Under the pieces are notes generated by a model, which worked only from the letters and a program-made list of their open reading frames with translations, was not told where the DNA came from and did not search any database. DNA of 62,451 nt from an uncultured Candidatus Saccharibacteria bacterium. Lineage in GTDB: Bacteria; Patescibacteriota; Doudnabacteria; UBA920. This document shows positions 6,817-44,483 of the stretch, in pieces. The number at the start of each line of letters is the position of its first letter. Within the stretch, counting starts at the first letter, position 1. Location of the stretch: positions 1-62,451 of the forward strand of contig CAZHIA010000009.1 in assembly GCA_964532425.1 (NCBI GenBank). Reading direction: 5' to 3'. The translations under genes were made by a program, and so were the position numbers.

Positions 6817-6930
6817 TCTACAAAACTACCCTGCGGAAATATCCAAATCTACGGAAAACTACGGATTCTCTAAGTGAGGATCCGTAGTTTTCCGTAGATT
6901 TGTAGTTTTGCGTAGCTCCGTAGTTATCTG
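6817..6930. repeat. word-repeat inverted repeat, family ctacgga/ccgtag, with a perfect 22-bp stem
   Basis: aaatctacggaaaactacggat (6845-6866) is the exact reverse complement of atccgtagttttccgtagattt (6880-6901). 13-nt loop, with imperfect word extensions on both sides. Confidence 0.9.
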
Positions 6931-7681: not shown

Positions 7682-8227
7682 TTATTGGATACCCTGGGGA
7701 GTCAACGTGTGAGAACCGGACTGCAAGCCGCCGGTCACACCACCGAGACAGAATGTGAGGGTGTATCTACTCCCGTTACTCATGGCTTCGTACCAGTAGT
7801 TGTTGGAACCCCTGGCAGCGGACGAGGCACAGGTGTTGTCAGCCGGCAGCGGAGCGGTCGGGATGATACCGATGTAAGTCGGGGTCAAATTGACCGAACC
7901 GTTCGGGCCGGATGCCGTCAAAGTCGTTCCACCAAACACACCTCCAGAAGCTGCGGAGTACGTGCTATTGGTCGGATACGCACTGGCATCGTTAAAGAAG
8001 AGTTCCAACGCGGACGCAAACTGTCTGACATCGGCCATTCTTTTGGCATCTCTAGACTTGGCTCGAGCCGAGTTTAAGGCCAATAAGACCACGGACGCTA
8101 AAAGACCGATGATAGCGATAACCACGAGCAATTCGATAAGAGTGAAACCCCGGGATCCGGGTGCAGACGCTGTTTTTGCAACCATCTGAACTCTCTGGCT
8201 GAAAGCAATGTTCTTCTCTTTATTCAT
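7682..8227 (-). CDS. type IV pilin / pseudopilin paralog
   Basis: [31 protein letters not shown]. The C-terminal half resembles the neighbour (TLTFCLGG vs TITFCLGS). Confidence 0.9.
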
Positions 8228-23800: not shown

Positions 23801-24323
23801 TCCCTGTCTTGGAGGTAAGGGTGTCTCCGGTGAGATTAGTGCCAGTAATATCAGTTGCTCCGAGCGAGGTGGTAATCTGGGAATTATTTAAGGCAGCAGG
23901 GTTAGACGGCAGGAGAATCGGTGAATACCCCGCCGGACCTTGCGGACCGGACGACCCGATGTCCCCTTTGTCGCCTTTCTCGCCCTTGAGTACCCCAGAT
24001 GCCAACAGAGTTTCAATTTTCTGATCTATAAGCTTGCTGAAAAATGCCGTATCCAGAGAAGGAACCGGTTTAACAGCAAGCGGAACGGTAGCAGCGGCTG
24101 GAGCTGCTGCTTTTCTGGCTGCTGAGGCCAGAACTTCGACAGCTTTTCCACCTGGTACCGGCATAGTCGGGCTAGATACCTTAGTGCGGGAGGCTGCGGC
24201 TGGAGTAGGAGCCACCAGACTGTCGATATAGCTGTTGGAGGCAAACGTAAAGCTGACCACTGCCGCCATACCAAAACAAGCAGCAAGGACCGCCAACAAA
24301 AGGCGATGCTTAAGCAGGTTCAT
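20871..24323 (-). CDS. large surface protein: collagen-like segment, 6-7 Cys-pair repeats, tail-fibre intramolecular chaperone (S74-like) domain, Pro/Thr/Glu tail
   Basis: N-terminal hydrophobic anchor. GEKGDKGDIGSSGPQGPAG at aa 114-132. Repeated ..DG.PRIVY..C.D.DC.. modules at aa ~236-580. SDVNLKENF..LPISQWNYK..HIGPTAQDFYAAF at aa 873-960. Confidence 0.85.
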   Translation of the reverse strand: MNLLKHRLLLAVLAACFGMAAVVSFTFASNSYIDSLVAPTPAAASRTKVSSPTMPVPGGKAVEVLASAARKAAAPAAATVPLAVKPVPSLDTAFFSKLIDQKIETLLASGVLKGEKGDKGDIGSSGPQGPAGYSPILLPSNPAALNNSQITTSLGATDITGTNLTGDTLTSKTGRFSESVNIQGNLTAGQTSLATTTVSSLTVSTATAGSILPGVSGSLRQTVITQIAAAAGSSYIYNDNQKFVAVGTDGYVRFVYMDWSSYELHYVHCLDLDCQTKNDKVISTNSNGSDAPTLSIASDGLPRIVYINYNTPNELHFVRCLDQDCNALTDTLVDHPAHGYFWNVSGTVDKDGLGRIVYEDYPQYQHPDPSQDYLKFAACLNADCTSVATTTVATSSTSWLEQSAIAVGSDNTARFVYINQDTTPNQIHYVVCQDASCTVRSDQLVGTVARGYYIDMVLGTDGYGRIVYTDDSSAIKFIQCTNAACSLSNTTTLASVANASQVTVIMDNNNLPRISYGAWNWPKGAGVFYIQCKTANCSEKSLASISFTGGGLNSMALGLDGYPRIVYGDLGSKVLKLARLVTEDGSTYAAGSSLGTSNNSFGDLYVNRLFVNGSLAGNWQELLNGQSYTQDIVSIGTTSMASILNVGGGTNAVFYTSGFGNSNSPSSTPFASFYGQNGGWSFLQVGEDRYAANTAIQFSNINASNINQSRSWIGAEYNWRFSSNLALFVSKDGNVARRPEDSLRGLTLTTGYDETNTYVYSWFNGSLSVGTTTPSDPGANNLYVQGDAKIGGKIMVAESTGTSGGGYSFYQDGGYDTGMFSPSDGTISFYTNGSESVRLRWDGHVGIGTTDASHLLTLSGGAYSDGSVWSNASDVNLKENFATVTPAEILQKIASLPISQWNYKADSATTTHIGPTAQDFYAAFGLGGEHASTSISTIDPSGVALLGIQALNQKIADLQGSIIGNATASSLSVYVSSNFSGDSVGEAKILAGQTSVRVTFKQAYKYQPVVTFSPEGAAVLAFIQSKDASGFTLSLPQATTTDVVFDWHSFASPEAQLTVSDGSTQNIILIQPQIIPPQSGQTGNGQEGGAQADLVVVTQEQPAVVDSQTTEPVQPVDAVPNEQATSTLPVVEPTPEVVTEPEAISSIATE

Positions 24324-33219: not shown

Positions 33220-33301
33220 AGCTTACAAAAGCTTTGGCGGGCCAGACCTGATGAAGGCTGGATGGATAGCTCTTTTCAGCCCTAAAGGAGGGCAACAATT
33301 T

Positions 33302-34798
33302 ATGGCAAGCGATCAGAACACCCCGAGCGGTGAGGTTTTTGTTTTTCCAACCTTTCCGAAGGATCCCAAAACAGGTGAAAAACTTGGCAACCCCGCGAAC
33401 TTCAAGTTCAAGATTTTCTTGAGCGATGCCGAACTAAACGGCCGGCCATTGGCTGGAAAAGTTACGATCGGGGTGCGCAGCAGCGCATCACCTGACAAGA
33501 ACTCGTACGAACTGCTCCCCGTCGGGCTGCCAGCAGCCCCTGACCCCAATCAGCCGCACGTCATTGACGTGCCAAGCAGCGGGGTTTCAGAGGAAATCTG
33601 GCTTGATTTGAGCGACTGGTATGCTCTCGATCCCCCGTGCAACCAGCTTGTATTTGTGATGGACGGGAAGATCAAAAAGTTTGCCTGGTTTCCGGGAATC
33701 GATACACGGAATGAGCCGAAGTCACCGCGAACGCGGCAACAACAGACTCCGCCCGTTCAAACCTCGGCACCCGCTGCACCGGCACAACCGCCAGCGGCAA
33801 ATCCAGCTCCGCCAGTTAACCCGAATCCACAGGCTCCACCTCGTCCTGCCGGGGGACAACCTCCTCCGCAGATCAATCCGCCGCAACCGGCGCCGCCTCC
33901 GCAGCCCCCTCTCCCGCAGAACGCGGGAACAACCGGGCAGCAGACGCCCCGCCCGCGGCCAACCCAACCGGCTCAACCGGCACAGCCGGCAAGCGATGAT
34001 GACCAAAATCAGAATCGCCGCAACCCCGGCCAGCCCCAGCGCGACAACACGCAGGGCAACAACCGGCGCGGACAGCAACAATCGGATGACGGCGAAGATG
34101 ACGAGTTCGATGACGTCAAAATCGAGCTGACAGGTCTTACCGCCGTGGAAAAGAAAAAGGACGGTAAGCTTACCGGTTACGATGTGACTGCCACGGTCGC
34201 CACGACCCGCAAGTCCGGCAAGAAAGGCGGCAACCGCAGTATTGCGGCACAAGTGCCTTTCACCTTCTTTGTCGATGGCAAGGAAGAGCAGGGACTCAAA
34301 CTCCGCACTGACCGTACCGGCAGACAATCCCATACTTTTGAGGATGTCCCTCCGGGCGGACGCAGCAAGAGCGGCAAGTTCAAAGTCGAAGCGGTCATCA
34401 AAGGCCGCGCCACTGGCGATGATGACACCATCAACGTCCCGGCTCCGCCGGCGGAAGATAAGAAGAAGGACGAGAAGAAGCTTCCGGCGCTGCAGGTCGT
34501 TCAACCGAACTATCCCAACAGTCGCGGTGGGTTCCCGATCACGGTCAAGACCCACAAGGACAATAAGCCCGCTCAGAGCAAGTTTACGATTGCGGCCTCC
34601 GAAGAGATCGAGCTCAGAGAGGTCAGCAGCGGAACCGTACACAAAGGCTTCACCTTTGATCTGGAGACGAGCGACAGCGGCTGTGCTGCGTACATCTTGA
34701 GTTTTGATCCGGTGCAGGTGTCGATTACGTTTTTGACACCGGCCGGATTCACCACGGACGAACTGTTCTGCAAGCCGAACACCGGCAGGAGATTCTAA
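33302..34798 (+). CDS. hypothetical protein with a ~125-aa Pro/Gln-rich linker (gene 1 of the GC-rich operon)
   Basis: aaaggaggg SD 9 nt upstream of ATG 33302. N-terminal domain, PQ-rich aa ~138-262, acidic patch, then a beta-rich C-terminal half. No signal peptide and no family recognised. Confidence 0.7.
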   Translation: MASDQNTPSGEVFVFPTFPKDPKTGEKLGNPANFKFKIFLSDAELNGRPLAGKVTIGVRSSASPDKNSYELLPVGLPAAPDPNQPHVIDVPSSGVSEEIWLDLSDWYALDPPCNQLVFVMDGKIKKFAWFPGIDTRNEPKSPRTRQQQTPPVQTSAPAAPAQPPAANPAPPVNPNPQAPPRPAGGQPPPQINPPQPAPPPQPPLPQNAGTTGQQTPRPRPTQPAQPAQPASDDDQNQNRRNPGQPQRDNTQGNNRRGQQQSDDGEDDEFDDVKIELTGLTAVEKKKDGKLTGYDVTATVATTRKSGKKGGNRSIAAQVPFTFFVDGKEEQGLKLRTDRTGRQSHTFEDVPPGGRSKSGKFKVEAVIKGRATGDDDTINVPAPPAEDKKKDEKKLPALQVVQPNYPNSRGGFPITVKTHKDNKPAQSKFTIAASEEIELREVSSGTVHKGFTFDLETSDSGCAAYILSFDPVQVSITFLTPAGFTTDELFCKPNTGRRF

Positions 34799-34799
34799 A

Positions 34800-35588
34800 A
34801 TGGACAACCCTATTCCTGGGCTGACAGGCCCTGCCAATCCGGCTGCTCCTACAGCGGCGCCTGGATGGCTTCACAAAGCCTGGAAATTGGTCACTGGCGG
34901 CGCTGAGGTTGCCGAGTCTGTAGCCACAATCGGCTACTTCACCGGCATCTTCAAACGCGACCAGCACGGCAAACCCAAACTCAATGGCGACCTGGTTCGC
35001 GCGCAAGCGCCCCACTTTGCCAAAGACCGCCACGCGGAAGCGCAGTTCTCCATTTTAATGGAAGAACTGAGTCCCGGCGAACAGACAGCTCTTGACCAGT
35101 ACTTTCTTCCGAGCCTCAGTGAGGACCAGCAGGCTGACTTCAAACTCAGCACGCTGGAAATGACCTGGGGTGAGACGGACGAGCAGAAGCAAAAAGGACG
35201 AGAGGCGGCAATCAAGTTCTTGAAACGGATTGCAGCCATTTCGGACAACATGCTGCGCATCGAGGTGGCGGATGCCCGAGATTTCATCAAGGGAGACCCC
35301 ACCGAGTACGGTTGGTACATGGTTCGCCAATTCGCACGGCGGGCTGCGGCCTGGTTCCGCGATCCAGCCGGTTTTCCGGCGCGGTATGCGCAATTCACCA
35401 ACTGGATGGAAAACGAAGGAACGGCGCGGATCATTGAGTTCCGCAACCGTCTCGGCGTAACCGTTCAACCAGTGCCCGGTGCGGCAGTTCCGCTGCTGCC
35501 CGTGGCACCTCCGGGAAGATTTAGACGAGTAGCCAACGCTGTTGATAATCCGTTCTCACTGTCGCGCGCCGCGCGACGCTTCAAATAG
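34800..35588 (+). CDS. hypothetical protein (gene 2 of the GC-rich operon)
   Basis: The ATG lies 2 nt after the gene 1 stop, with aggaga SD. 262 aa, soluble. No family recognised. Confidence 0.65.
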   Translation: MDNPIPGLTGPANPAAPTAAPGWLHKAWKLVTGGAEVAESVATIGYFTGIFKRDQHGKPKLNGDLVRAQAPHFAKDRHAEAQFSILMEELSPGEQTALDQYFLPSLSEDQQADFKLSTLEMTWGETDEQKQKGREAAIKFLKRIAAISDNMLRIEVADARDFIKGDPTEYGWYMVRQFARRAAAWFRDPAGFPARYAQFTNWMENEGTARIIEFRNRLGVTVQPVPGAAVPLLPVAPPGRFRRVANAVDNPFSLSRAARRFK

Positions 35589-35605
35589 ATAGGAGATTAC
35601 AGATT

Positions 35606-37390
35606 ATGGGAGAATTTCTTTCTCAACTATTTGGTGCGCTCGACGACGTGCGCGCCCTTACCAAGGCGGCTGTGAGCCGCCTTCTCACGCTGTTCGTCAC
35701 GTTCATCATCGTGAATATCGTGATGGCACGATTCATGCAGCAATGGCTGAATCCCTGGCACTTGGTGCTTGCCGCGGTCATGGTATTCCTGATTTGGCGA
35801 GTCGTGTGGGTTGGCCTGAACCGCGTCACTGACGCGGCCCTCGTGGCTGCGTACCGAAACAACGAACCAGCAAAGGAAGCCATTGGCTATGTCAAACAGG
35901 CCATGGGCATCGTCCTGCTGGCAGGTTTCGGGTTCTGGGTTCTGCCCACCTACCGTTCGTTCACGCTGACGTTGGCTCTCCTGTTGCTTGTCTTCCTGCT
36001 CTTTCTGAGCAGCCCCGACAAGTGGAACTGGTTGACCATAAAGCGTGTCTCCGTAGTCGGCATCATGTTCGTGATCAGTGGGCTCATGTTATTCCCGCTG
36101 CTCAAGCACTACGGACCGCGCATTATGTACCACACTGGCAAAGCCGCTACCACGTCGTACTATATCACCTCCCGGGACACCGTTGAAAAATGGTGTTTCG
36201 ACTGTGTGATTAAGGACGGCAAGTTGGAGGGCGGCAAAAACTTCAGCCAACTCAAGGACGTGAAGGCCGGCGACTGGTACATTCCCGTTGATCAGGAAAG
36301 TCCTGCTCCCATCGACCTCAACGGCGTCAGTATGATGCCGCTCTTCAAAGCCTACGACAGCAAACTGCCGGTCAAGGGCTTTGACATGGATCCCAAACGG
36401 ATCGCTTTCGTTCCCGTCGGACACCTTCGGGAAGAGAGCGATTTAGCGGGAACAGGCTCAAGCGACAGCTGGTGGGAACGCAACAAACCCGCCGCAATCC
36501 GCTGGGCAGTTGTGTTCGGGCTCATCTTCCTCGGTTTCCTGATCATCCCGCCGGTATGGCGGTACTTGTCAGGACAGACCAGGGAAACCAGACCCGCGCA
36601 TGACGGTCTCGTAGGACCTGGCGTGCATCATGCAGGTCCCTACGGCGCTGATGCGCACGCACACGCCGCTCCGGCTCCTCATGCCGCAGCTCATGCAGCT
36701 GCTCATGAAGAGCACGGCGGACATGGTGCTGGATTGCCCCCAGCGGTCTGGATTACCCTGATCGTTGTACTCGGCATAGTCGCATTATTGTTCACCCAGA
36801 GATGGTGGAACAATATCGGCACCGGACCGGTCTACGCCAACAACGCACCGTCCGCAACAACTCCGGTCCAGCAGGTGAGTTCCCAAGGATCTGGCGAGCA
36901 ACGAGGTGCCGCGCTTCCGGTTCCGGGAGTAGGCGCCTCACAGCGCTGGAATCCTGAAACCCAGCAATGGGAAACGCCGGATTTCACCACCCTGTCCGAT
37001 TTTCGCGGACGATGGAAGGTCGTGGTTCCCGCTAACACCGAGGTGTTTACCGACATCCAGGTCAAGCGAGCGCAGACCATTACATTCATTTCCCGCAGTG
37101 GTCGGGTTAAAAATAATCCCAAAGAGGATTACACAAACCCGCCGCAGGGAACGTACCCGATCGACATCATCTCGCCGGCAAACCCGCCCTATACGCTTCC
37201 GGAAGCACATACCGGAGCGTTACTGTGCCGCTTCTCAGGCAACCAGCAATGGTTCGACGCTGGCGGCCGGGATGGGAATACTTACACGGTCGAGGTCGAA
37301 GAGGGCCAGATCGTGTTCGCGGCCAACACCCGCGTCGGCGAACGAAACTTCGCCACCGGCCAGTTCGAGGTAGTATTTGAAATTCAGTAG
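35606..37390 (+). CDS. polytopic membrane protein with a His/Ala-rich segment and a C-terminal PA-IL/LecA-like beta domain (gene 3)
   Basis: taggaga SD. About 5 N-terminal TM helices plus 2 more. HHAGPYGADAHAHAAPAPHAAAHAAAHEEHGGHG at aa 341-376. The C-terminus GALLCRFSG..WFDAGG..GQIVFAAN..GQFEVVFEI resembles the LecA fold pattern. Confidence 0.7.
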   Translation: MGEFLSQLFGALDDVRALTKAAVSRLLTLFVTFIIVNIVMARFMQQWLNPWHLVLAAVMVFLIWRVVWVGLNRVTDAALVAAYRNNEPAKEAIGYVKQAMGIVLLAGFGFWVLPTYRSFTLTLALLLLVFLLFLSSPDKWNWLTIKRVSVVGIMFVISGLMLFPLLKHYGPRIMYHTGKAATTSYYITSRDTVEKWCFDCVIKDGKLEGGKNFSQLKDVKAGDWYIPVDQESPAPIDLNGVSMMPLFKAYDSKLPVKGFDMDPKRIAFVPVGHLREESDLAGTGSSDSWWERNKPAAIRWAVVFGLIFLGFLIIPPVWRYLSGQTRETRPAHDGLVGPGVHHAGPYGADAHAHAAPAPHAAAHAAAHEEHGGHGAGLPPAVWITLIVVLGIVALLFTQRWWNNIGTGPVYANNAPSATTPVQQVSSQGSGEQRGAALPVPGVGASQRWNPETQQWETPDFTTLSDFRGRWKVVVPANTEVFTDIQVKRAQTITFISRSGRVKNNPKEDYTNPPQGTYPIDIISPANPPYTLPEAHTGALLCRFSGNQQWFDAGGRDGNTYTVEVEEGQIVFAANTRVGERNFATGQFEVVFEIQ

Positions 37391-37425: not shown

Positions 37426-37461
37426 GCCCCGTTCCGATGAACAATCGGAACGGGGCTTTTT
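37426..37461 (+). terminator. Rho-independent terminator of the GC-rich operon
   Basis: gccccgttccgat gaaca atcggaacggggc followed by ttttt. The 56545-56574 terminator has the same 12-nt arms. Confidence 0.8.
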
Positions 37462-37636
37462 AATACTCTTTAATCAAAACCGGCTTCATAGCCGGTTATT
37501 TTAATAGCGAATTATCCGCCGTAGTCCCGACTCAATGTCGGGACGAAGGAGGATATGTATTGATGAACCAAATGCAAAGGTCACCTTCGCGCTGCGCGAA
37601 GGTGACCTTTGCTGTGGAAAGAAGCACCCCCAAATC

Positions 37637-37672
37637 AAAACCGCCGGATTTTCAATTCCGGCGGTTATTTTT
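37637..37672. terminator. bidirectional terminator
   Basis: aaaaccgccgga ttttcaat tccggcggtt attttt, 6 nt from the stop of the first pilin-like gene. Confidence 0.75.
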
Positions 37673-37677
37673 CAAAT

Positions 37678-38463
37678 TTATCTATTCAGTGTCCCGGCGA
37701 CTACTGCCACGATCGTATAAGAAAGGATGACCACAACCAGTCCGATAACGGCGTTGACGAGCGTGTTCTTGCCTTTCTCTGCCTGCTCGCCATTACCAGC
37801 CGAGGTAATGTACCAGAAGCCGCCTAAAATAATGAACACAACAGCAATAGCTCCGGCAAACTGCAATAACATTTTGATAATCTTTTGGAGCAGCGTCGGC
37901 AAGGTATCGGCATTGTTCCAGCCAGTGTTGGTTTGGGGAATACAGATGCCATTCTTAAAATCATACCCCGCACCGCAATTTCCTGAACCACCACCCGAAC
38001 CAGAACCCCCAGTACCGCCCGTACCGCCAGTTCCACCAGAACCTCCGGTCCCACCGGTTCCACCAGCACCTCCAGCTCCAGTATCTCCTCCCGTTCCGCC
38101 GGTGCCAGTTCCACCCGTACCAGTCCCCGATCCGCCCCCTGGATTATTGGACATGCATTCGTTGGTAATAGGATTCATGGTATACCCAGAATTGCATTCG
38201 CACGCTCCGGTAGAATTATTACAGCTTTGATTGGAACCGCATGTCTTGCCCGCGCACGGGTTAGTCTGCGTGCCGCCTTGGTCGTATACGCAGGTGCCGC
38301 TGCCCGGATCACATGCCAATCCTCCGGCAGTGTCGCAATCGGAATTTTGGGAGCAGGATCCGCCAATACCTACCGTTCCCGCAAACGCTAAGGGGGACGC
38401 GACTGCCAGCAGACTGACTGCAACCATTCCAGCTATTAAAAATTTTGGGAATAGTTTATTCAT
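37678..38463 (-). CDS. TrbC/VirB2-like 'T4SS pilin' paralog 1 with a Cys-rich head and Gly/Thr/Ser linker
   Basis: Signal peptide, 12-Cys EGF-like region, (GGT/GGS)n linker. C-terminal module FWYITSAGNGEQAEKGKNTLVNAVIGLVVVIL lies between two hydrophobic helices. Confidence 0.8.
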   Translation of the reverse strand: MNKLFPKFLIAGMVAVSLLAVASPLAFAGTVGIGGSCSQNSDCDTAGGLACDPGSGTCVYDQGGTQTNPCAGKTCGSNQSCNNSTGACECNSGYTMNPITNECMSNNPGGGSGTGTGGTGTGGTGGDTGAGGAGGTGGTGGSGGTGGTGGTGGSGSGGGSGNCGAGYDFKNGICIPQTNTGWNNADTLPTLLQKIIKMLLQFAGAIAVVFIILGGFWYITSAGNGEQAEKGKNTLVNAVIGLVVVILSYTIVAVVAGTLNR

Positions 38464-38466
38464 ACC

Positions 38467-38853
38467 TCAAATTTGCCCGTTACCGACTAAATTGCTGACC
38501 ACCGTAACCAGCACATAGGACAAGGCGATAACCACAATACCAATTAGGGCATTGACCACGGTGTTCTTGCCTTTTTCCGCGGACTCGGCACTGCCGGCTG
38601 AGGTGATATACATGTAACCGCCATAGACCAGGAAAATAATGGCAATCGCTCCGGTAAACATGAGCATGAGCCGTATCACGTTCGTGATCAATTCCATAAC
38701 CGATTGGGAATTCCCCAACCGTCCGGAGTTACCAAAAATGCTCCTGAGTCCGCTTCCGCTCAAACCTTCGCTGACCGCATCGGCAAACGCCACCAGCGGT
38801 ACCGAAACAGCCGCACCGGCAGCAACAAGGCCTTTGATGAATTTGTTTTTCAT
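38467..38853 (-). CDS. TrbC/VirB2-like 'T4SS pilin' paralog 2 (minimal form)
   Basis: Signal peptide plus YMYITSAGSAESAEKGKNTVVNALIGIVVIAL module. 128 aa. Confidence 0.85.
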   Translation of the reverse strand: MKNKFIKGLVAAGAAVSVPLVAFADAVSEGLSGSGLRSIFGNSGRLGNSQSVMELITNVIRLMLMFTGAIAIIFLVYGGYMYITSAGSAESAEKGKNTVVNALIGIVVIALSYVLVTVVSNLVGNGQI

Positions 38854-38992
38854 ATTATTTCATTATGTTTTTGAACTGGTCTTTTGGTGCAACTGGGATT
38901 CCACAAAAAGATCGGTCCAAAAATTAGGAAGTTCCTGCCCCGCTTCCAGCAGTATAAGCTGCCGGCGTGCGGGGCAGGAATCAAATTTATGG

Positions 38993-39403
38993 TTACGGGG
39001 TTGAAGTCCCAGTACCAGCATTGCTGACCAGGTTGGAAACCACGCTGACGATAACGTATGAAAGCACGATAATAACGATACCGATCAAAGCGTTAACTGC
39101 AGTGTTCTTGCCTTTTTCCGCGGACTCCGCGTTACCGGCAGAAGTGATGTACTGGAAACCGCCGATAATAAGGAACAAAACCGCGATACCGAAGGCGATA
39201 CCGAGCATCCAGCGAATCACGGTGGTGATAAGCCCGTTGACGCTCGTACCGGCGTTACAGTTCACGCCGCCCAACTGGTTGCAGTCCACACCGGAAGACA
39301 GCGCAAAAGCGCTCGCCACCGGCACTACCGTTATGGCAATAACGGCAATAATCTCTGCAATTTTGAGGAAATCGATTTTTCTTATTTGTTTCAAGCTGTT
39401 CAC
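38993..39403 (-). CDS. TrbC/VirB2-like 'T4SS pilin' paralog 3 (minimal form)
   Basis: FQYITSAGNAESAEKGKNTAVNALIGIVIIVL module. GTG start at 39403, or TTG at 39394 behind gagagggg. Confidence 0.8.
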   Translation of the reverse strand: MNSLKQIRKIDFLKIAEIIAVIAITVVPVASAFALSSGVDCNQLGGVNCNAGTSVNGLITTVIRWMLGIAFGIAVLFLIIGGFQYITSAGNAESAEKGKNTAVNALIGIVIIVLSYVIVSVVSNLVSNAGTGTSTP

Positions 39404-39490
39404 CCCCTCTCGGGTTTCAAAGATATGAATATCCTTGTTTGCTAATAATAGTATACTATAAAAACCGCAAAAGTTAAAACGAATTTCCCT

Positions 39491-40231
39491 CTAGTTATGT
39501 CCTACCGAATAACCGCAAACTTTAGCGACTACTTTTTGATCCGTGGCCCCGGGCACCCCATATTCCGCCAGATATGAATTCACGCCCGTCGTCTGGAACG
39601 GGGCATACCCGATAGGTGTATCATTCGGAGTTACTACCTCCAAGACCGGCGCGGGGTACCCCTTTGCCGTACAGTAATCTACTATGGCCTGTTGTTTGTC
39701 AGGAGTCGTACCAACATACACGCGCAATCTCCCGGTGCTCGTTAAGAACTGCGGGTTGTTGATGGCGTTGTTCATTTGGTCTTGCAGTGCCTGCATGCGC
39801 TGCTCATTAGTTGTTCCTCCCCCGCTACCGCCCGCGCCAGAGCCAGAGCCGCCCGATGAATTAGTAAGGGTGTTGGTCACCAGGCGGACAATGAGCGATG
39901 ACAGTAAAATCACCGTAAGCCCAATGACTGCATTGACCAGGGTATTCTTTCCTTTTTCCACACTCTCGCCGTTGCCGGCCGAGGTCAAATACCGGAAACC
40001 GCCCAAAATTATGAACAGCACCGCCACACCGCCAGCCAGCATGAGCAGCAAGTTAATGGCTTTAAGGAGAATGCCGTTGGCCGTGCAATATTCTGCCGGC
40101 ACCCAGTCAAACAAGCCACCAAAAGACGACACCCAGCTCGGACACCCGGAGCTTGCGGCCTGGACGAGAGATGGAACCGTGATGGCCGTCAGGGCAGCGA
40201 CCATGATAAATATTTTTGTTTTTTGCGACAT
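39491..40231 (-). CDS. TrbC/VirB2-like 'T4SS pilin' paralog 4 with a C-terminal extension domain
   Basis: FRYLTSAGNGESVEKGKNTLVNAVIGLTVILL module in the N-terminal half, then a Gly/Ser linker and a ~100-aa C-terminal domain. Confidence 0.8.
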   Translation of the reverse strand: MSQKTKIFIMVAALTAITVPSLVQAASSGCPSWVSSFGGLFDWVPAEYCTANGILLKAINLLLMLAGGVAVLFIILGGFRYLTSAGNGESVEKGKNTLVNAVIGLTVILLSSLIVRLVTNTLTNSSGGSGSGAGGSGGGTTNEQRMQALQDQMNNAINNPQFLTSTGRLRVYVGTTPDKQQAIVDYCTAKGYPAPVLEVVTPNDTPIGYAPFQTTGVNSYLAEYGVPGATDQKVVAKVCGYSVGHN

Positions 40232-40416
40232 ATATCTAAGCTCGTTTATATTGTTTTTGACTCAAGCTTACTTCAATACCTTTCCGTCTCGCTTCGCGAT
40301 CCACCTTCCCTACAAGGGAAGGATTAACTGCAGCCTTGCAGCCGGCTCCCCTCTCTTTGTCTAAAGAGAGGGGTACACCCAGGCACCATCGGATGGTGTC
40401 TGGGTAAAGGGTGAGT

Positions 40417-41637
40417 TTAGAAGAATGATGCCGGATTCGGAATATCAGCACCGAGCAGGTTTTGGATGATGGCAATGATGGCAAAGGAAAGCAGGGCGAT
40501 CACTAAACCCATGACAGCCCAAATAATGGTACTTTTAGCTTTTCCATACGCCTCAGAATTTCCCTGGGACAAAACCATCTGGAACCCGCCGACAATGATC
40601 ATGGCCACGGAGAGTGCCCCGAGTACGCCCATCATCATCTTTAGGATGCGCGTGAATACCTGAAACAGATTACCAGAAGCTGAACCGAGCGGATTGATAA
40701 AAGATACCGTGGGATTTCCAGGAGTACCCCCGGTATTCGGATTGCCCGGGGTTCCACCAGTGTTCGGATTGCCAGGAGTCCCTGTACCAGGATTTCCGGA
40801 TGTACCACCCAAATTATTATCCCCGGTCAATGTTGCCGTTGCTTCGGCAATCTTCATACTTGTCCCCGCTTGCCACAGACTAACCGTGATATTATTCGTA
40901 CCTGCTTTGAAACCTCCGGACGAAGTCACGGTGGTGTCCAGCCATTGATCGCTTTGCATTTCCGCGCGCGATTTGGTAAATGTACCAAGCGTCTGTCCGT
41001 TCGCTTCGAATTTCAGATAAAAACTTTGTACCCCGGCATACTGCGAGCTATTCAGATCGCCCTGGTCAATATGGAATAAGATCTGTAATGGGTCATTCGC
41101 TTTGAATGACGATTGGCTTTGCGGTTTAAAATAGACACTCACCTGCGCACCGCTGCCTCCAACCGCGCCGGTTACTGCTACATTCCACGCGCTGCTGCGA
41201 GTTTGTTCGCTTCCCTGCCATACGCTGCTATAGAATTCAAAGACATTCGGGGTCGGCAAATCGGAACGGTCGATCGTGCTAATATTGACCGAAAAAGTTA
41301 CAACTGCCATGCTTTGCCAGTTTCCGTTGGAATCCTGCTGTGACGAAAACTGCATGCTTTTACTCTCCAATTGTTTGATTCCGGAAGCCATTTTTGACTT
41401 ATATCCAATGCTTACGGAGGCACTGGATGAACAATCGCTCATGTTACCGGAACGGGTCACTCGCGACGTAAATGTTAGGGTCTGGCCAGTAGCAGCCGAA
41501 GTGGCATTGCCGCTGAAATTGTCATCATAATTGCATGCTGCCTGGGCGACAAATGGTACAGTTGCGGCAAAGACCAGGCCGAGCAGATATATGCTTGCTG
41601 TAAAAAGACTGAGCATGCGGACGAATAAACGTTGCAT
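40417..41637 (-). CDS. TrbC/VirB2-like 'T4SS pilin' paralog 5 with a large N-terminal beta-rich head
   Basis: Signal peptide, ~270-aa head, (GNPNTGGTP)n repeats, then FQMVLSQGNSEAYGKAKSTIIWAVMGLVIALL module. Confidence 0.8.
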   Translation of the reverse strand: MQRLFVRMLSLFTASIYLLGLVFAATVPFVAQAACNYDDNFSGNATSAATGQTLTFTSRVTRSGNMSDCSSSASVSIGYKSKMASGIKQLESKSMQFSSQQDSNGNWQSMAVVTFSVNISTIDRSDLPTPNVFEFYSSVWQGSEQTRSSAWNVAVTGAVGGSGAQVSVYFKPQSQSSFKANDPLQILFHIDQGDLNSSQYAGVQSFYLKFEANGQTLGTFTKSRAEMQSDQWLDTTVTSSGGFKAGTNNITVSLWQAGTSMKIAEATATLTGDNNLGGTSGNPGTGTPGNPNTGGTPGNPNTGGTPGNPTVSFINPLGSASGNLFQVFTRILKMMMGVLGALSVAMIIVGGFQMVLSQGNSEAYGKAKSTIIWAVMGLVIALLSFAIIAIIQNLLGADIPNPASFF

Positions 41638-41664
41638 AGTGGAATAGTTAATAATCGCTGTCAG

Positions 41665-42102
41665 TTAACACCCCGGTCCCGACGGGTTAACATAGCAGCG
41701 TGGATTGGTCAAATTTACATGGGCCTGGAACACATTATTAACCAGAGTATTCACGATAGCAAAAGCAAGCAAGACGATTATGAAACCGATAATGGCATTA
41801 GTCATGCCGGTTTTGGCCTTGCCATACGCTTCGCCATTTCCGGCAGAGAGGGTCATATTCACAGCACTCACTACCATCCAAAAGACCGCATAGACGCCGG
41901 ACATGGCCAGCAGAAATGATATCAGCTTAGCCGCCAGAGTAAACATATCCTCGACGGAGCACGGATGCTCGCCATCCCCGCCGCACGGAACCAAACCGGC
42001 AGCGGAAGCCGCAAGCGGGATAAATGCCAGCACCGTACAAACAATTGACGCTATGATCTTATTTTTTGATTTCAACATGGGCAATTTCTTTGCCTTAAGC
42101 AT
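41665..42102 (-). CDS. TrbC/VirB2-like 'T4SS pilin' paralog 6
   Basis: Start at MLKAKK (42102), alternative 42078. Signal peptide and NMTLSAGNGEAYGKAKTGMTNAIIGFIIVLL module. Confidence 0.75.
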   Translation of the reverse strand: MLKAKKLPMLKSKNKIIASIVCTVLAFIPLAASAAGLVPCGGDGEHPCSVEDMFTLAAKLISFLLAMSGVYAVFWMVVSAVNMTLSAGNGEAYGKAKTGMTNAIIGFIIVLLAFAIVNTLVNNVFQAHVNLTNPRCYVNPSGPGC

Positions 42103-42180: not shown

Positions 42181-42209
42181 CACCAAAACACCCCGACTTG
42201 TCGGGGTGT
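42181..42209 (-). terminator. Rho-independent terminator after the solute-binding protein gene
   Basis: acaccccgac / gtcggggtgt stem. On the minus strand it is followed by tttggtg. Confidence 0.75.
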
Positions 42210-42246
42210 TTAATCTTTCTATCTTTTATTTTCTATTTTTCTATAG

Positions 42247-43563
42247 TTACTGCTGCAACTGCCGCAGCGTGGCTGCCTGTTGCTCAGCTTGTTGCAGTGC
42301 TTGGTCGGGCGGGATCGATTTCAGGATGACATTGTCAATCATTTGTCCCATAAGCTGGTCCATCCGCGCCTGGTCCGGCCGGTAAAAGGCTTTGGAGGTC
42401 AGGTTGGCATTGGCAAATACCCCAATGTCCGGATCGTTCGCCTGCATTTCTATCAAATCCCGGCGAGCTGAAGGATATTTGGTTTTGGCATAGAAGCTGT
42501 CCAGCTGGGGTTTTTGCGTAATGAAATTCAGGAAGTCCCAAGCCCACGGTGCGCTCTTGCTCTGTTTGGAAACCACCTCGCCCCAGTAGTTGGAAAAATT
42601 GACGGCTGGCTGGTCCAAATTTGGCTGAGGCACCGGAGCGACATCAAAATTCAAATTCGGGGATTTCTGCAAAATGGTCTGCCGGGTATAGGAATAGCTG
42701 TAAAGGAAGGCGGCCCGGCCGTTGGCAAAAGCATCTATGGAATAATCGCTCTTATAATTCCAGTTATAATTCGGGGTTAACGGATTGGCGAATGACGTGT
42801 AGAAGGATAGTGCGTCCGATCCCGGAGAAATACTCTTGCCGTCCTGCTGCAGGCTCTGGGCAAACTGCGGCGTGGTCCCGTCCGAAGAATATGGCACGGT
42901 CCCCTTCTGCAGCATCATCAAGTATAAAATATCCACCGCCCGGTTGATGTTCGTGTTGGTCCCGAGCGCGGCACCACTGACCGTAAAATAGCCGTATTTA
43001 TCCTGACGCTTCACTTTCTGCACATCCTGCACCAGCTCCAGCCAGGTTCGCGGCGGCGTACCAATACCGGCACTGCCGAGCAAATCCTTGTTATAGTACA
43101 GCGCCAGCGAGTCCACATACAAAGGGACTCCGTAAATTTTGCGGTCCCTGGTAAAATCCTGCACCGCCACATCCACGAATGCATTCTTGTAATAGTTGAA
43201 GGTCATGGCTTTGTCCGTGGCGGGCGCAACCTTATCGATATATTTCGGCAGCCAGGAATTGTTAATGGCAAAAATATCCGGGCCAGTTCCGGCAGCCAGG
43301 TTGTTGATCAAATCTGATTCGTACGTATCGATATTTTTTTTGGTATACACAATATGGACGTTGGGATGCACTTTGGTATATGCATCAATCAGCGGCTGAA
43401 TCGTGTCCGTTTCCTCGAACGGCATCCACATGGTCAACTGCACCTGCTGATTGGCATTATTATTGCTATTGCCGCAGCCGTACGTCCCTAACGCCAAAGA
43501 AACCACCGCCATCAGGGCAGGAAGTTTCTTTAAGATTTTTTTCATTTGGATTTTTATTTTCAT
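42247..43563 (-). CDS. ABC transporter substrate-binding lipoprotein (family 1, sugar-type)
   Basis: Lipobox LALGTYGC, length and pattern of extracellular solute-binding family 1. No permease or ATPase adjacent. Confidence 0.8.
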   Translation of the reverse strand: MKIKIQMKKILKKLPALMAVVSLALGTYGCGNSNNNANQQVQLTMWMPFEETDTIQPLIDAYTKVHPNVHIVYTKKNIDTYESDLINNLAAGTGPDIFAINNSWLPKYIDKVAPATDKAMTFNYYKNAFVDVAVQDFTRDRKIYGVPLYVDSLALYYNKDLLGSAGIGTPPRTWLELVQDVQKVKRQDKYGYFTVSGAALGTNTNINRAVDILYLMMLQKGTVPYSSDGTTPQFAQSLQQDGKSISPGSDALSFYTSFANPLTPNYNWNYKSDYSIDAFANGRAAFLYSYSYTRQTILQKSPNLNFDVAPVPQPNLDQPAVNFSNYWGEVVSKQSKSAPWAWDFLNFITQKPQLDSFYAKTKYPSARRDLIEMQANDPDIGVFANANLTSKAFYRPDQARMDQLMGQMIDNVILKSIPPDQALQQAEQQAATLRQLQQ

Positions 43564-43583: not shown

Positions 43584-44483
43584 CTACAGTTTCAATGTCT
43601 TCAAATAATCCCCGAATTCTTTGCTCAGGTCCTCGTGACGCAAACCATACTCGACGACCGTCTTTAAGTATTCCAGCTTGTTTCCGCAATCACGGTATTT
43701 ACCGCCTTTGATCTCCTTGGTCAGGCACGCGCGCTTGCGCTCGAGCAGAATATTGATGGCGTCCACATAAACGAGTTCGCGCGGCGTATTATCCTGGTTA
43801 CTCATGCGGTGCATGGCCTCGGCAATCGCGTCGAACATTTCCGGATCATAGACCGCGCCGCCAATAATCGCGTAATCGGAATCGATCATGCCGACTCCGG
43901 GCTTTTCGACAATCTTCTCGATCTGCAGCAACCCATTCTCTATCTCCTGACCACTGGCATACCCATAGCGCTTGTAGTCCTCGGGACGGTTGGTGCGGAT
44001 GCTGGCCAAAATTGCGGAGGCTCCAGGGTTCTGTTCGTATGCTGCCACCAGTTGCTGGCAACGCGTCGGCTCCGCATCAATGAACTCATCGCCCCACAGC
44101 ACAATGAACGGCTCATTGCCTACTATGTCACGGGCGTTCCAGATCGGCGTCGCGTTCCCAAGGGGACCGCGCTGGCGCACGTAATAAAAATTGGCCATAT
44201 CGGCAATGCGGCGGATCTCTTCCAGCTCATCATACTTGCCGGACTCTTCCAGGCGCTTCTCGAGCTCGAACGGATAATCGAAATGATCCTCAATGCTACG
44301 CTTGCTCCAACCGGTGACAATGACAATATCTTCAATCCCGGCTGAGACCGCGTCTTCCACCACATACTGAATGATCGGCTTGTCTACAATCGGCAGCATC
44401 TCTTTGGGCTGCGCCTTGGTCGCCGGCAGGAACCTGGTACCGTAACCAGCCGCCGGAATAACAGCTTTTCGTACTTTTTTCAT
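43584..44483 (-). CDS. galU: UTP--glucose-1-phosphate uridylyltransferase
   Basis: KAVIPAAGYGTRFLPATKAQPKEMLPIVDKPIIQY. Confidence 0.93.
   Translation of the reverse strand: MKKVRKAVIPAAGYGTRFLPATKAQPKEMLPIVDKPIIQYVVEDAVSAGIEDIVIVTGWSKRSIEDHFDYPFELEKRLEESGKYDELEEIRRIADMANFYYVRQRGPLGNATPIWNARDIVGNEPFIVLWGDEFIDAEPTRCQQLVAAYEQNPGASAILASIRTNRPEDYKRYGYASGQEIENGLLQIEKIVEKPGVGMIDSDYAIIGGAVYDPEMFDAIAEAMHRMSNQDNTPRELVYVDAINILLERKRACLTKEIKGGKYRDCGNKLEYLKTVVEYGLRHEDLSKEFGDYLKTLKL

What the first reader, a model, noticed from the sequence alone, without database searches (positions are those of the whole stretch)
37678..42102. Tandem array of six TrbC/VirB2-like 'T4SS pilin' paralogs with swapped head domains
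Seen:
- Six consecutive minus-strand genes share one ~60-aa module. It is a hydrophobic helix, then (Y/F/M)xTSAGN(G/A)E..EKGKNT.VNA.IG (variant SQGNSEAYGKAKS / SAGNGEAYGKAKT in two members), then a second hydrophobic helix.
- Around this module the architecture varies:
  - Two minimal forms (128 and 136 aa).
  - A 12-Cys EGF-like head with a Gly-rich linker.
  - A ~270-aa beta-rich head with GNPNTGGTP repeats.
  - A C-terminal extension domain.
  - A Cys-containing tail.
- No VirB4, VirD4 or VirB6 gene is recognisable anywhere in the window.

Established, from memory and unverified: a Pfam family named T4SS_pilin (I recall PF18895) groups such proteins, mainly from CPR bacteria, and their function is not experimentally defined.

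Inference: these form a surface filament or adhesin repertoire with exchangeable tips, relevant to the episymbiotic lifestyle.
Basis: partly seen in the sequence, partly recalled or inferred. Interest (0 to 1): 0.7.

Follow-up and report, generated by a model that had tools for sequence, protein, structure and literature searches.

The report
Six-gene VirB2-like pilin array (CPR)
Six neighbouring genes in a Patescibacteria (probably Saccharibacteria) chromosome encode small secreted two-helix "T4SS pilin" proteins, four of them carrying extra surface domains; such pilin arrays have already been described in this group, so this is a correct identification of a known feature with some new detail.

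Summary
Six consecutive minus-strand genes (37678-42102) each encode a signal peptide, two hydrophobic helices and a short Lys-containing loop. All six score above Pfam's gathering cut-off for PF18895 T4SS_pilin. The described heads and tails are present: a 12-Cys head with a Gly linker, a roughly 270-aa beta head, a C-terminal domain, a Cys tail and two minimal forms.

No VirB4, VirD4 or VirB6 gene is in the window; the context is housekeeping chromosome.

The kind is already published. McLean 2018 described arrays of 4-6 signal-peptide proteins. Wang 2023 showed that the six-pilin array of S. epibionticum is essential. Quinonero-Coronel 2025 counted 441 arrays of 2-11 genes.

My additions:
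- The array sits at a fixed syntenic site (ComM-GalU-SBP-array-FtsH) in relatives. Positions 1-3 behave as positional orthologues and positions 4-6 form one mixed group. Extracellular heads and tails are gained, lost or replaced between species.
- A carbohydrate-type solute-binding protein gene lies directly upstream in 11 of 11 pilin-seeded arrays. In three distant CPR loci it lies between a VirB4-like ATPase gene and the pilins.
- Homology to canonical VirB2/TrbC is not demonstrable by sequence.

Verdict: new member of a known kind, moderate to low interest.

The parts
41665..42102 (-). p6 (array position 1): 145-aa PF18895 protein with a Cys-containing C-terminal tail. Start uncertain: ATG 42102, alternatives up to 42186.
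   Evidence: ORF. PF18895 at 30.4 bits. Signal peptide plus 2 TM. Groups with the position-1 genes of L003, L004, L013 and L015 in the clustering order, and is the best BLAST match of the L003 and L004 position-1 genes, though it stays a singleton at identity cut-offs of 40-50%.
40417..41637 (-). p5 (position 2): 406-aa protein. Signal peptide; two beta-sandwich domains (aa 34-156 and 166-272; nt about 40822-41538); disordered GNPNTGGTP linker (aa 279-322; nt 40672-40803); pilin hairpin (aa 323-394).
   Evidence: PF18895 at 33 bits. AF2 model pLDDT 67.7, with 70-88 in the beta domains. Foldseek finds tandem Ig/FnIII-like folds such as RbmA, E about 2e-7 with low TM-scores. Head homologues in P0002-P0005, L003 and L015.
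39491..40231 (-). p4 (position 3): 246-aa protein. Signal peptide, Cys pair, pilin hairpin (aa 52-117), Gly/Ser linker, then a C-terminal domain of about 100 aa (aa 142-246; nt 39494-39808).
   Evidence: PF18895 at 42 bits; TrbC PF04956 at 14.5 bits, below its cut-off. AF2 C-terminal domain pLDDT 75-85 with mixed helix and strand. Only weak filamin/Ig-like Foldseek matches, E above 0.02. Tail homologues are rare.
38993..39403 (-). p3 (position 4): minimal 136-aa form, a candidate major subunit.
   Evidence: PF18895 at 45.4 bits. 60-63% identical to the L003 and L004 orthologues. Core 71% identical to p2.
38467..38853 (-). p2 (position 5): minimal 128-aa form, a candidate major subunit.
   Evidence: PF18895 at 37.2 bits..
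37678..38463 (-). p1 (position 6): 261-aa protein. Signal peptide; 10-Cys head with an EGF-type pattern (aa 29-110; nt 38134-38379); Gly/Thr/Ser linker (nt about 37948-38133); CG..NGIC disulfide hairpin; pilin hairpin (aa 185-254; nt 37702-37911).
   Evidence: PF18895 at 44.4 bits. 12 Cys and 23% Gly. 9-nt periodic repeats in the linker DNA. Position-6 proteins of L003, L004, L013 and L015 share the CG..NG[IL]C hairpin (followed by [IVL]P in all but L004) but have different or no heads.
42247..43563 (-). Carbohydrate-type extracellular solute-binding protein (possible lipoprotein) directly upstream of the array; a conserved partner gene.
   Evidence: PF01547 and PF13416. Weak GanS/MalE similarity. 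Directly upstream of pilin arrays in L003, L004, L006, L007, L008, L009, L012, L018, L023 and L025. No ABC importer permease found among the window ORFs scanned with Pfam.
42186..42211 (-). GC-rich hairpin between the SBP gene and p6; a possible attenuator or terminator.
40232..40416 (-). Intergenic region between p5 and p4 with 4-5 consecutive stable stem-loops.
   Evidence: RNA fold -75.8 kcal/mol, z = -4.86 against shuffles. No Rfam family. The L004 and L015 gene coordinates leave no spacer at this junction.
37639..37666 (-). Intrinsic-terminator-like hairpin directly after p1, marking the end of the array transcription unit.

Best explanation
The six genes are a chromosomal array of PF18895 'T4SS pilin' paralogues, the Patescibacteria-type VirB2-like pilin array.

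Shown or read from sequence:
- Each protein has a signal peptide ending in an AxA-type motif, so export by Sec and cleavage by signal peptidase I is inferred.
- Each then has a two-helix membrane hairpin. From the signal peptide and the two TM segments, the N- and C-termini are inferred to lie outside the cell and the short EKGK/GKAK loop on the cytoplasmic side.

Inferred from gene context in other CPR bacteria and from the literature:
- A VirB4-type T4SS encoded elsewhere in the genome extracts these hairpins from the membrane and assembles them into a surface filament or stalk.
- The two minimal paralogues (p2, p3) are the bulk subunits.
- The paralogues carrying extracellular domains on flexible Gly/Pro-rich linkers act as minor or distal subunits that contact the host-cell surface. 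These are p5 (tandem Ig-like domains), p1 (Cys-knot/EGF-like head), p4 (C-terminal domain) and p6 (Cys tail).

Between species the hairpin and the gene order are kept while the extracellular parts are replaced, as expected for host-facing surfaces. The upstream solute-binding protein is a conserved partner whose role is unknown.
For: - All six genes exceed the PF18895 gathering score.
- All six show significant but sub-threshold similarity to the Mycoplasma ICE pilin-like family NF045849 (E down to 1.5e-8). p2 and p3 also match pLS20_p028.
- Each protein has a signal peptide plus two TM segments, with two Lys in the loop. AF2 predicts a long helical hairpin.
- In distant CPR loci the same kind of array lies next to a VirB4-like ATPase, with further cluster genes that differ by locus: a PEGA-domain protein (L006, L012), a CHAP hydrolase (L012), or PrgI, a TraC-like protein and an M23 peptidase (L018).
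- Literature: the six-pilin array of S. epibionticum lies in the T4SS cluster and all six genes are essential (PMC10633639, Tables S1 and S2). 441 arrays were found in 383 assemblies, and in about 40% of VirB4-positive assemblies with pilins the pilin genes are not near virB4 (PMC12102498).
- Module clustering shows positional orthology for positions 1-3, while heads and tails differ.
- The heads are Ig/FnIII-like folds typical of adhesins.
- GC content of the array equals the local genome average, so it is native.
Against: - No T4SS ATPase or channel gene is in the 62-kb window, and the rest of the genome could not be inspected.
- Sequence homology to canonical VirB2/TrbC is not significant.
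- No pilus built from PF18895 proteins has been observed in any organism, according to the reviews read (PMC12857230, PMC11665869).
- A 270-aa head on a subunit is hard to reconcile with tight helical packing unless the subunit is rare or terminal.
- Single polypeptides with 3-17 concatenated modules exist in the family. This is unusual for true pilins.
Confidence: 0.55

Rival explanations
1. Membrane-anchored surface display rather than a filament. The two-helix hairpin is simply a stable membrane anchor, perhaps oligomerising in the membrane. It presents adhesin or enzyme-like heads through the wall on Gly-rich stalks, and the minimal forms are scaffolds. No T4SS-driven polymerisation takes place.
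For: - Long flexible linkers and globular heads resemble stalked surface proteins.
- The array lies away from any T4SS gene in this clade.
- Concatenated multi-module polypeptides fit a membrane-resident bundle better than a pilus subunit.
- Homology to VirB2 is unproven.
Against: - Tight and recurrent linkage with VirB4-like ATPase genes and other T4SS cluster genes (PrgI, PEGA-domain protein) in other CPR lineages and in S. epibionticum.
- The array and the T4SS genes are both essential there (PMC10633639).
- Minimal forms without any head are the most conserved members, which an anchor-only role does not explain.
Confidence: 0.25
2. Part of an uptake device. The solute-binding protein and the hairpin proteins work together, with the VirB4/VirB6-like machinery encoded elsewhere. 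The SBP captures a host-derived carbohydrate or glycoconjugate, and the hairpin assembly forms the conduit or docking site for import.
For: - An SBP gene lies directly upstream of the array in 11 of 11 pilin-seeded arrays with upstream sequence. In six loci the gap is 50 nt or less, or the genes overlap.
- In L006, L012 and L018 the SBP gene lies between the VirB4-like gene and the pilins.
- No cognate ABC importer permease is near the SBP in the window or in L013, L015 and L017.
- Published speculation holds that the CPR T4SS imports nutrients (bioRxiv 258137; PMC11665869; PMC12857230).
Against: - S. epibionticum, where the array is essential, has no PF01547 or PF13416 SBP in its annotation table, so the SBP is not required for the core function.
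- Adjacency may reflect shared regulation only.
- A terminator-like hairpin separates the SBP gene from the array in the window.
- No precedent exists for SBP-dependent T4SS transport.
- The SBP's permease could be elsewhere in the genome.
Confidence: 0.12
3. Antigenic or phase-variation cassette system. The paralogues serve as donors for recombination at the conserved module, so that heads are swapped within a lineage, as in Neisseria pilE/pilS or Anaplasma.
For: - A conserved module is flanked by variable parts, and the paralogues are in tandem.
- Analogies with Bartonella and Anaplasma VirB2 paralogues are drawn in PMC12102498.
Against: - Module DNA copies are only 65-70% identical, and the direct repeats shared between different genes are only 14-18 nt at 76-93% identity.
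- All six genes are complete, each with its own signal peptide, and none is a silent cassette.
- The modules at array positions 1 and 2 group by position across species, with position 3 doing so in the relatives only, which argues against frequent conversion.
- The two other assemblies of this strain are 100% identical.
Confidence: 0.04

Closest known systems
Patescibacteria VirB2-like pilin arrays (S. epibionticum ML1 SEML1_0014-0019; the TM7x array of signal-peptide proteins; 441 arrays in Quinonero-Coronel et al. 2025)
   Same: - Same Pfam family (PF18895), tandem arrangement and number of genes (six in ML1).
- N-terminal signal peptides and strong sequence divergence among paralogues.
- Chromosomal rather than plasmid location, and no relaxase context.
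   Different: - The array here is not next to VirB4/VirB6/PrgI; it sits at a ComM-GalU-SBP ... FtsH housekeeping site.
- Four of the six members carry extra extracellular domains (up to 406 aa), whereas the ML1 genes are all 103-185 aa.
- An SBP gene precedes the array, while the ML1 annotation table lists no PF01547 or PF13416 SBP.
- The core identity of the two closest paralogues (71%) is higher than the published maximum of 54%, which was probably measured over full length.
TrbC/VirB2 conjugative pilins (PF04956; Agrobacterium VirB2, RP4 TrbC)
   Same: - Signal peptide plus two hydrophobic helices joined by a short basic loop, and a size of about 100-130 aa for the minimal forms.
- Association with VirB4-type ATPases in some lineages.
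- Weak or faint PF04956 hits are recorded for several relatives.
   Different: - Below the PF04956 cut-off (14.5 against 27.9 bits), and hhalign is not significant.
- Monoderm host, six paralogues rather than one, and fused globular domains.
- No VirB5, VirB3 or VirB1 gene is adjacent in the window.
Mbov_0395 family pilin-like conjugal transfer protein (NF045849, Mycoplasma ICE) and pLS20_p028 (NF045890)
   Same: Monoderm T4SS-associated two-helix proteins. All six window proteins match NF045849 at E 1.5e-8 to 7e-4. p2 and p3 match pLS20_p028 at E 3.6e-5 and 2e-4.
   Different: - Scores of 19-34 bits are below the equivalog cut-off of 40.
- Those proteins are encoded on mobile conjugative elements as single genes, not as chromosomal arrays.
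VirB2 paralogue families of Bartonella and Anaplasma T4SS
   Same: Tandem amplification and diversification of a T4SS pilin gene in a host-dependent bacterium. This is the comparison drawn in PMC12102498.
   Different: Those are canonical PF04956 pilins of diderm bacteria without fused domains. Their variation is thought to serve immune evasion in animals.

Membership tests
Pfam PF18895 T4SS_pilin | Whole-protein score at or above the curated gathering cut-off (26.6 bits) | tested here: met
   All six score 30.4-45.4 bits. Precomputed PF18895 hits on the same genes in L001 and L002.
Pfam PF18895 T4SS_pilin | Module of about 70 aa made of two hydrophobic helices joined by a short polar loop | tested here: met
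   Profile positions 2-71 of 71 are matched. Hydropathy shows two TM segments with a Lys-containing loop. AF2 predicts a helical hairpin.
Patescibacteria VirB2-like pilin array (as defined in PMC12102498) | Two to eleven PF18895/PF04956-positive genes in tandem, or separated by one non-pilin gene | tested here: met
   Six consecutive genes on one strand, separated by 3-185 nt with no intervening gene on that strand.
Patescibacteria VirB2-like pilin array (as defined in PMC12102498) | Host genome is a Patescibacterium that also encodes VirB4 | not testable with these tools
   - Closest genome records are labelled Ca. Saccharibacteria or Patescibacteria.
- VirB4 is absent from the window, and the rest of the genome is not available.
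- The literature states that the T4SS is conserved throughout Saccharibacteria (PMC11665869).
TrbC/VirB2 pilin (PF04956) | Score at or above the gathering cut-off (27.9 bits) | tested here: not met
   Only p4 hits, at 14.5 bits and E 0.041.
TrbC/VirB2 pilin (PF04956) | Detectable homology to genuine VirB2/TrbC sequences | tested here: inconclusive
   - hhalign of the six-module profile against four annotated VirB2/TrbC proteins gives probability 1% and E 0.052, although the helices align in register. Both profiles are shallow.
- No match to PDB sequences.
- Foldseek on the full-length models gave no pilin hit among the listed matches.
TrbC/VirB2 pilin (PF04956) | Encoded within a T4SS gene cluster (VirB3, VirB4, VirB6 neighbours) | tested here: not met
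   Not in the window, nor in L003, L004, L013, L015 or L017. Met for homologous arrays in L006, L012 and L018.
TrbC/VirB2 pilin (PF04956) | Polymerises into an extracellular pilus dependent on VirB4 | not testable with these tools
   Requires experiment. Not shown for any PF18895 protein, according to PMC12857230.
NCBIfam NF045849 Mbov_0395 pilin-like conjugal transfer protein | Score at or above the equivalog cut-off (40 bits) | tested here: not met
   19.2-34.2 bits. The similarity is significant but the proteins are not members.
Type IV pilins (T4P, class III signal peptide) | N-terminal prepilin methylation motif (PF07963) cleaved by PilD | tested here: not met
   No N_methyl hit on any of the six. 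Their N-termini end in AxA type I sites. Genuine N_methyl proteins are elsewhere in the window, at 6924-7463 and 7682-8227.

The most novel reading that the evidence does not exclude
The carbohydrate-type solute-binding protein and the hairpin-protein array form a conserved two-part unit of the CPR T4SS-like apparatus. It sits between VirB4 and the pilins in deep-branching lineages and has been split off as SBP plus array in this Saccharimonadia-like clade. If the pairing is functional, the 'pilus' would be a nutrient-capture or import conduit, with an SBP feeding it and species-specific heads docking it to the host. That would be an SBP-coupled, inward-working T4SS derivative with domain-fused pilins.
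Probability: 0.12. Interest if true: 0.8.

Novelty: new member of a known kind. Interest (0 to 1): 0.35.

Why it matters
The role of the T4SS-like system and its pilin array is an open question in Patescibacteria biology. Both are essential in the only genetically tractable species, yet their function is described as completely unknown (PMC11665869).

This locus adds nothing categorically new, but it gives useful handles:
- Clear positional orthologues for array positions 1-3, whose extracellular domains turn over between species. These are candidate host-specificity determinants.
- Examples of pilin modules fused to Ig-like and Cys-rich domains.
- A recurrent, apparently unremarked SBP partner gene that could be tested for a role in uptake.

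Tried and rejected
1. Searched for a VirB4, VirD4 or VirB6 gene in the window by Pfam scans of 46 ORFs. None was found, and the FtsK-family hit is a genuine FtsK.
2. Tried to reach the rest of the source genome. The look-up of encoding contigs returned only 6-7 kb Logan contigs that are 100% identical to the window. VirB4 elsewhere could therefore not be checked, and no strain-level variation was available.
3. Tested homology to canonical VirB2/TrbC:
   - Module profile against PDB sequences: 0 hits.
   - tblastn of p3 against 72,556 plasmids: only two irrelevant Embleya hits.
   - hhalign against genuine VirB2/TrbC sequences retrieved from annotated plasmids: not significant.
4. R388 accession BR000038 was not in the plasmid collection.
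It was redone without that row.
6. Foldseek on the p4 model gave only weak filamin/Ig-like matches, so I do not assign a fold to the C-terminal domain.
7. Recombination-cassette idea rejected. Module DNA is 65-70% identical, and the repeats shared between different genes are only 14-18 nt long at 76-93% identity.
8. The plus-strand trio 33251-37390 was considered as VirB6-like or other T4SS partners. It has no Pfam or NCBIfam support, is absent from L003 and L004 by BLAST, and L013, L015 and L017 carry different or no genes at that spot. It also has higher GC. I treat it as a lineage-specific insertion, not part of the system.
9. The metagenome scan gave only three extra loci, too few for statistics.
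10. Rfam found no family in the array's structured intergenic regions.

Full report
**1. Observation**

The ORF list for 36-44 kb shows six consecutive minus-strand ORFs. In transcription order they are:
- p6, 41665-42102 (145 aa; the longest ORF extends to 42186)
- p5, 40417-41637 (406 aa)
- p4, 39491-40231 (246 aa)
- p3, 38993-39403 (136 aa)
- p2, 38467-38853 (128 aa)
- p1, 37678-38463 (261 aa)

Evidence for the shared module:
- A Pfam scan places all six in PF18895 T4SS_pilin, at 30.4-45.4 bits against a gathering cut-off of 26.6.
- Core identities range from 25% to 71%, the highest being p2 against p3.
- Kyte-Doolittle analysis gives three hydrophobic segments in every protein. The first is an N-terminal signal-like segment ending in an AxA-type site; the other two are TM helices separated by a loop of 14-18 residues with two Lys.

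All the accessory architectures are as described:
- p1 has 12 Cys, including a CxCxxGYx8C pattern that I recall as EGF-type, although Pfam found no EGF domain. A Gly/Thr/Ser linker of about 60 aa follows, and its DNA has 9-nt periodic repeats.
- p5 has a roughly 270-aa N-terminal region and GNPNTGGTP repeats.
- p4 has a C-terminal extension behind a Gly/Ser linker.
- p6 ends in ...NPRCYVNPSGPGC.

**2. Context in the window**

I scanned 46 ORFs across the window against Pfam, taken from a non-overlapping set of ORFs of 80 aa or more; a few small or end-of-window ORFs were left out.

- The window is ordinary chromosome. It encodes NusA, ClpP, RNase Y, SodA, TrmD, SMC, RNase III, FtsH, ComM, LspA, RecA, a RodZ-like protein, FtsK, fumarase and malic enzyme, plus two tRNAs.
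- There is no VirB4, VirD4/TraG, VirB6, PrgI or relaxase. The only FtsK/HerA-type ATPase has FtsK alpha and gamma domains.
- GC content of the array (0.50-0.51) equals the window average.
- Directly upstream, and co-oriented, lie a GalU-like nucleotidyltransferase (43584-44483) and a carbohydrate-type extracellular solute-binding protein (42247-43563; PF01547/PF13416; weak GanS/MalE similarity).
- Downstream, convergent, lie three genes without family assignment (33251-37390) in a patch of higher GC (0.55-0.57).

**3. What is known**

The literature search shows that this kind of locus is already described.
- McLean et al. (bioRxiv 258137) reported an array of 4-6 small hypothetical proteins in Saccharibacteria, all with N-terminal signal peptides. 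It lay in a syntenic region, and its closest homology was to VirB2.
- Wang et al. 2023 (PMC10633639) found six PF18895 genes (SEML1_0014-0019, 103-185 aa) in the T4SS cluster of Southlakia epibionticum. All six are essential in Tn-seq.
- Quinonero-Coronel et al. 2025 (PMC12102498) searched 3,035 genomes with PF18895 and PF04956.
  - They found VirB2-like pilins in 1,948 VirB4-positive assemblies, near virB4 in only 1,135 of them.
  - They found 441 arrays of 2-11 genes in 383 assemblies, mainly in Saccharimonadia and Microgenomatia, with mean identity 25%.
  - They proposed adaptation to different host strains.
- A 2025 review (PMC12857230) calls the arrays remarkable because monoderm T4SSs otherwise lack pilins. 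It notes that a pilus is only a possibility.
- My own profile search of 1.84 billion representative proteins found 76,284 family members at E of 0.001 or better.

**4. Comparative analysis**

Scans seeded with the module returned L003 (Ca. Saccharibacteria MAG), L004, L005, L023 and more distant CPR loci. Look-ups through the SBP and through pilin homologues gave L013, L015, L017 and L018.

*Synteny.* In the close clade the backbone is FtsK, RodZ, RecA, RNase_T helicase, LspA, ComM, GalU, SBP, array, FtsH, RNase III, SMC. This backbone is conserved, with flanking proteins 58-85% identical.

*Array composition.* Protein lengths in aa, in transcription order:

| Locus | Array members |
|---|---|
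| window | 145 / 406 / 246 / 136 / 128 / 261 |
| L003 | 162 / 423 / 138 / 128 / 128 / 301 |
| L004 | 151 / 519 / 412 / 154 / 130 / 152 |
| L015 | 166 / 465 / 297 / 127 / 126 / 227 |
| L023 | 147 / 318 / 144 / 137 / 135 / 233 |
| L013 | 154 / 127 / 134 / 138 / 221 |
| L017 | 280 / 128 / 146 / 172 / 161 |

*Positional orthology.* Clustering of the module sequences alone groups genes by array position for positions 1, 2 and 3. The window's own p4 is the exception, since it groups with the core set. Positions 4-6 form a single, more similar core group.

*Turnover of heads and tails.* Head-only BLAST shows which extracellular parts are shared.
- The p5 head is shared with L003 (1e-22) and L015 (1e-14), but not with L004 or L005.
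- The p1 head and the p4 tail have no significant counterpart in their positional orthologues.
- Position-6 proteins share only a CG..NG[IL]C disulfide hairpin before the first TM helix.
- Position-3 orthologues range from no tail (138-140 aa) to tails of about 300 aa.

So the hairpin and the gene order are conserved, while the extracellular parts are gained, lost or replaced between species.

*No active shuffling.* Within the genome the module DNA copies are only 65-70% identical, and the direct repeats shared between different genes are only 14-18 nt long at 76-93% identity. The other two assemblies of this strain are identical. There is no sign of ongoing cassette exchange.

**5. Structures**

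- p5, modelled with four homologues, has mean pLDDT 67.7.
  - It shows two beta-sandwich domains (34-156 and 166-272, pLDDT about 70-88), a disordered linker (279-322) and a two-helix hairpin (321-356 and 361-394).
  - Foldseek against the PDB returns tandem Ig/FnIII-like proteins such as V. cholerae RbmA, complement MG domains and Fabs. E is about 2e-7 but TM-scores are low, so only the general fold class is assigned.
- p4 has mean pLDDT 63.5. It shows the hairpin and a C-terminal domain of about 100 aa at pLDDT 75-85, with only weak filamin-like matches.
- Other family members carry PF16656, PF13620 or PF09430 beta-sandwich domains. Fusion of the module to beta-sandwich domains is therefore recurrent.

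**6. Is it VirB2?**

Membership of PF18895 is met. Membership of PF04956 is not: one hit at 14.5 bits against a cut-off of 27.9.

I retrieved genuine annotated VirB2/TrbC genes from plasmids, using a sequence recalled from memory only as bait. A profile-profile comparison aligns the helices in register but is not significant (probability 1%, E 0.052). No PDB sequence matches.

There is significant but sub-threshold similarity to the Mycoplasma ICE pilin-like family NF045849 (E down to 1.5e-8) and to pLS20_p028. This ties the family to monoderm conjugation systems.

The strongest argument for a T4SS role is gene context elsewhere.
- In L006 (Berkelbacteria) the order is VirB4-like ATPase, PEGA protein, SBP, pilins.
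- In L012 (a WS2-labelled bin) the order is the same, followed by a CHAP hydrolase gene.
- In L018 the order is PrgI, TraC-like, VirB4-like, M23 peptidase, a double SBP, then four pilins.

'Works like VirB2' is thus a reasonable inference. 'Is a VirB2 homologue' is unproven.

**7. The SBP**

Every pilin-seeded array for which upstream sequence exists has an SBP_bac_1/8 gene directly upstream. These are the window, L003, L004, L006, L007, L008, L009, L012, L018, L023 and L025, 11 of 11.
- In six loci (L006, L009, L012, L015, L017, L018) the gap is 50 nt or less, or the genes overlap.
- The SBP is much better conserved (60-70% identity in many relatives) than the pilins.
- No ABC importer permease lies nearby.

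Three caveats apply.
- The seeds share this subfamily's loop motif, so the sample is biased.
- S. epibionticum has no such SBP.
- A hairpin separates the SBP gene from the array in the window.

I found no paper in the held library that links an SBP to the CPR T4SS. This is the most novel lead, but it is only an association.

**8. Mechanism**

Most likely (confidence 0.55):
- The proteins are Sec-exported and processed by signal peptidase I into hairpin proteins, with both termini inferred to lie outside the cell.
- A VirB4-type machine encoded elsewhere draws them from the membrane and builds a surface filament or stalk.
- p2 and p3 are the bulk subunits.
- The domain-bearing paralogues are minor, host-contacting subunits.

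The membrane topology follows from the sequence features. Extraction, polymerisation and adhesion are inferred.

Rivals:
- A non-polymerising membrane anchor for displayed domains (0.25).
- An SBP-coupled uptake device (0.12).
- A recombination or antigenic-variation cassette system (0.04; evidence against).

**9. Verdict**

This is a correct and careful first-stage reading of a real feature. The feature belongs to a published class, so it is a new member of a known kind.

The added value lies in three points: positional orthology for array positions 1-3 with turnover of heads and tails, the domain-fused pilins, and the recurrent SBP partner. Interest is 0.35.

Noticed in passing
window 42247-43563 (-); L006 6944-8422, L012 7276-8781, L018 6095-8719, L009 3025-4419, L008 7893-9314, L023 4319-5623, L025 13-990: A carbohydrate-type solute-binding protein gene lies directly upstream of PF18895 arrays in 11 of 11 pilin-seeded loci. 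In L006, L012 and L018 it sits between a VirB4-like ATPase gene and the pilins. In L018 it is a double SBP of 874 aa. The S. epibionticum annotation table lists no such SBP. I found no paper linking the two.
   Followed up: partly
P0028 (820 aa, 8 modules), P0033 (287 aa, 3 modules), P0044 (1775 aa, 17 modules): Many top family hits are reported with 2-17 matched module stretches. In the two I read, P0028 and P0033, the hairpin modules are joined head to tail without internal signal peptides or obvious read-through junctions, so they look like real fusions. This is odd for a pilus subunit and may bear on how the modules pack.
   Followed up: partly
window 33251-37390 (+): ORFs of 515, 262 and 594 aa: Three genes without any family assignment, with raised GC (0.55-0.57), sit between the array and tRNA-Leu/FtsH. 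The 594-aa product is a polytopic membrane protein with a His/Ala-rich stretch. They have no BLAST match in L003 or L004. The same spot holds different opposite-strand gene sets in L004 and L015 and almost nothing in L003, L013 and L017. It looks like a variable insertion hot spot.
   Followed up: partly
window 40232-40416 (-): The intergenic region between p5 and p4 folds into 4-5 consecutive stable hairpins (-75.8 kcal/mol, z = -4.86). It matches no Rfam family, and the L004 and L015 gene coordinates leave no spacer at this junction. It may be a processing, stability or attenuation element that splits the array into two expression units.
   Followed up: partly
window 20871-24323 (-): A 1150-aa protein whose only Pfam hit is the Peptidase_S74 intramolecular chaperone domain of endosialidase and tail-fibre proteins, at residues 873-924. 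It may be a large self-cleaving fibre-like surface protein.
   Followed up: no
window 6924-7463 and 7682-8227 (-): Two type IV pilin-like proteins with the N-terminal methylation motif (PF07963). These are true T4P-type pilins, unrelated to the PF18895 array.
   Followed up: no
window 37426-37666: Four strong hairpins sit in the 290-nt convergent gap between the 594-aa gene and p1, including a perfect 19-bp palindrome at 37574-37612. They look like stacked bidirectional terminators.
   Followed up: no
L006 5510-6934, L012 5481-7304; SEML1_0005 in PMC10633639 Table S2: A PEGA-domain protein lies in the same gene cluster as the VirB4-like ATPase in distant CPR lineages: directly after it in L006 and L012, and three genes away in S. 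epibionticum. No PEGA-domain protein was found among the window ORFs scanned.
   Followed up: no
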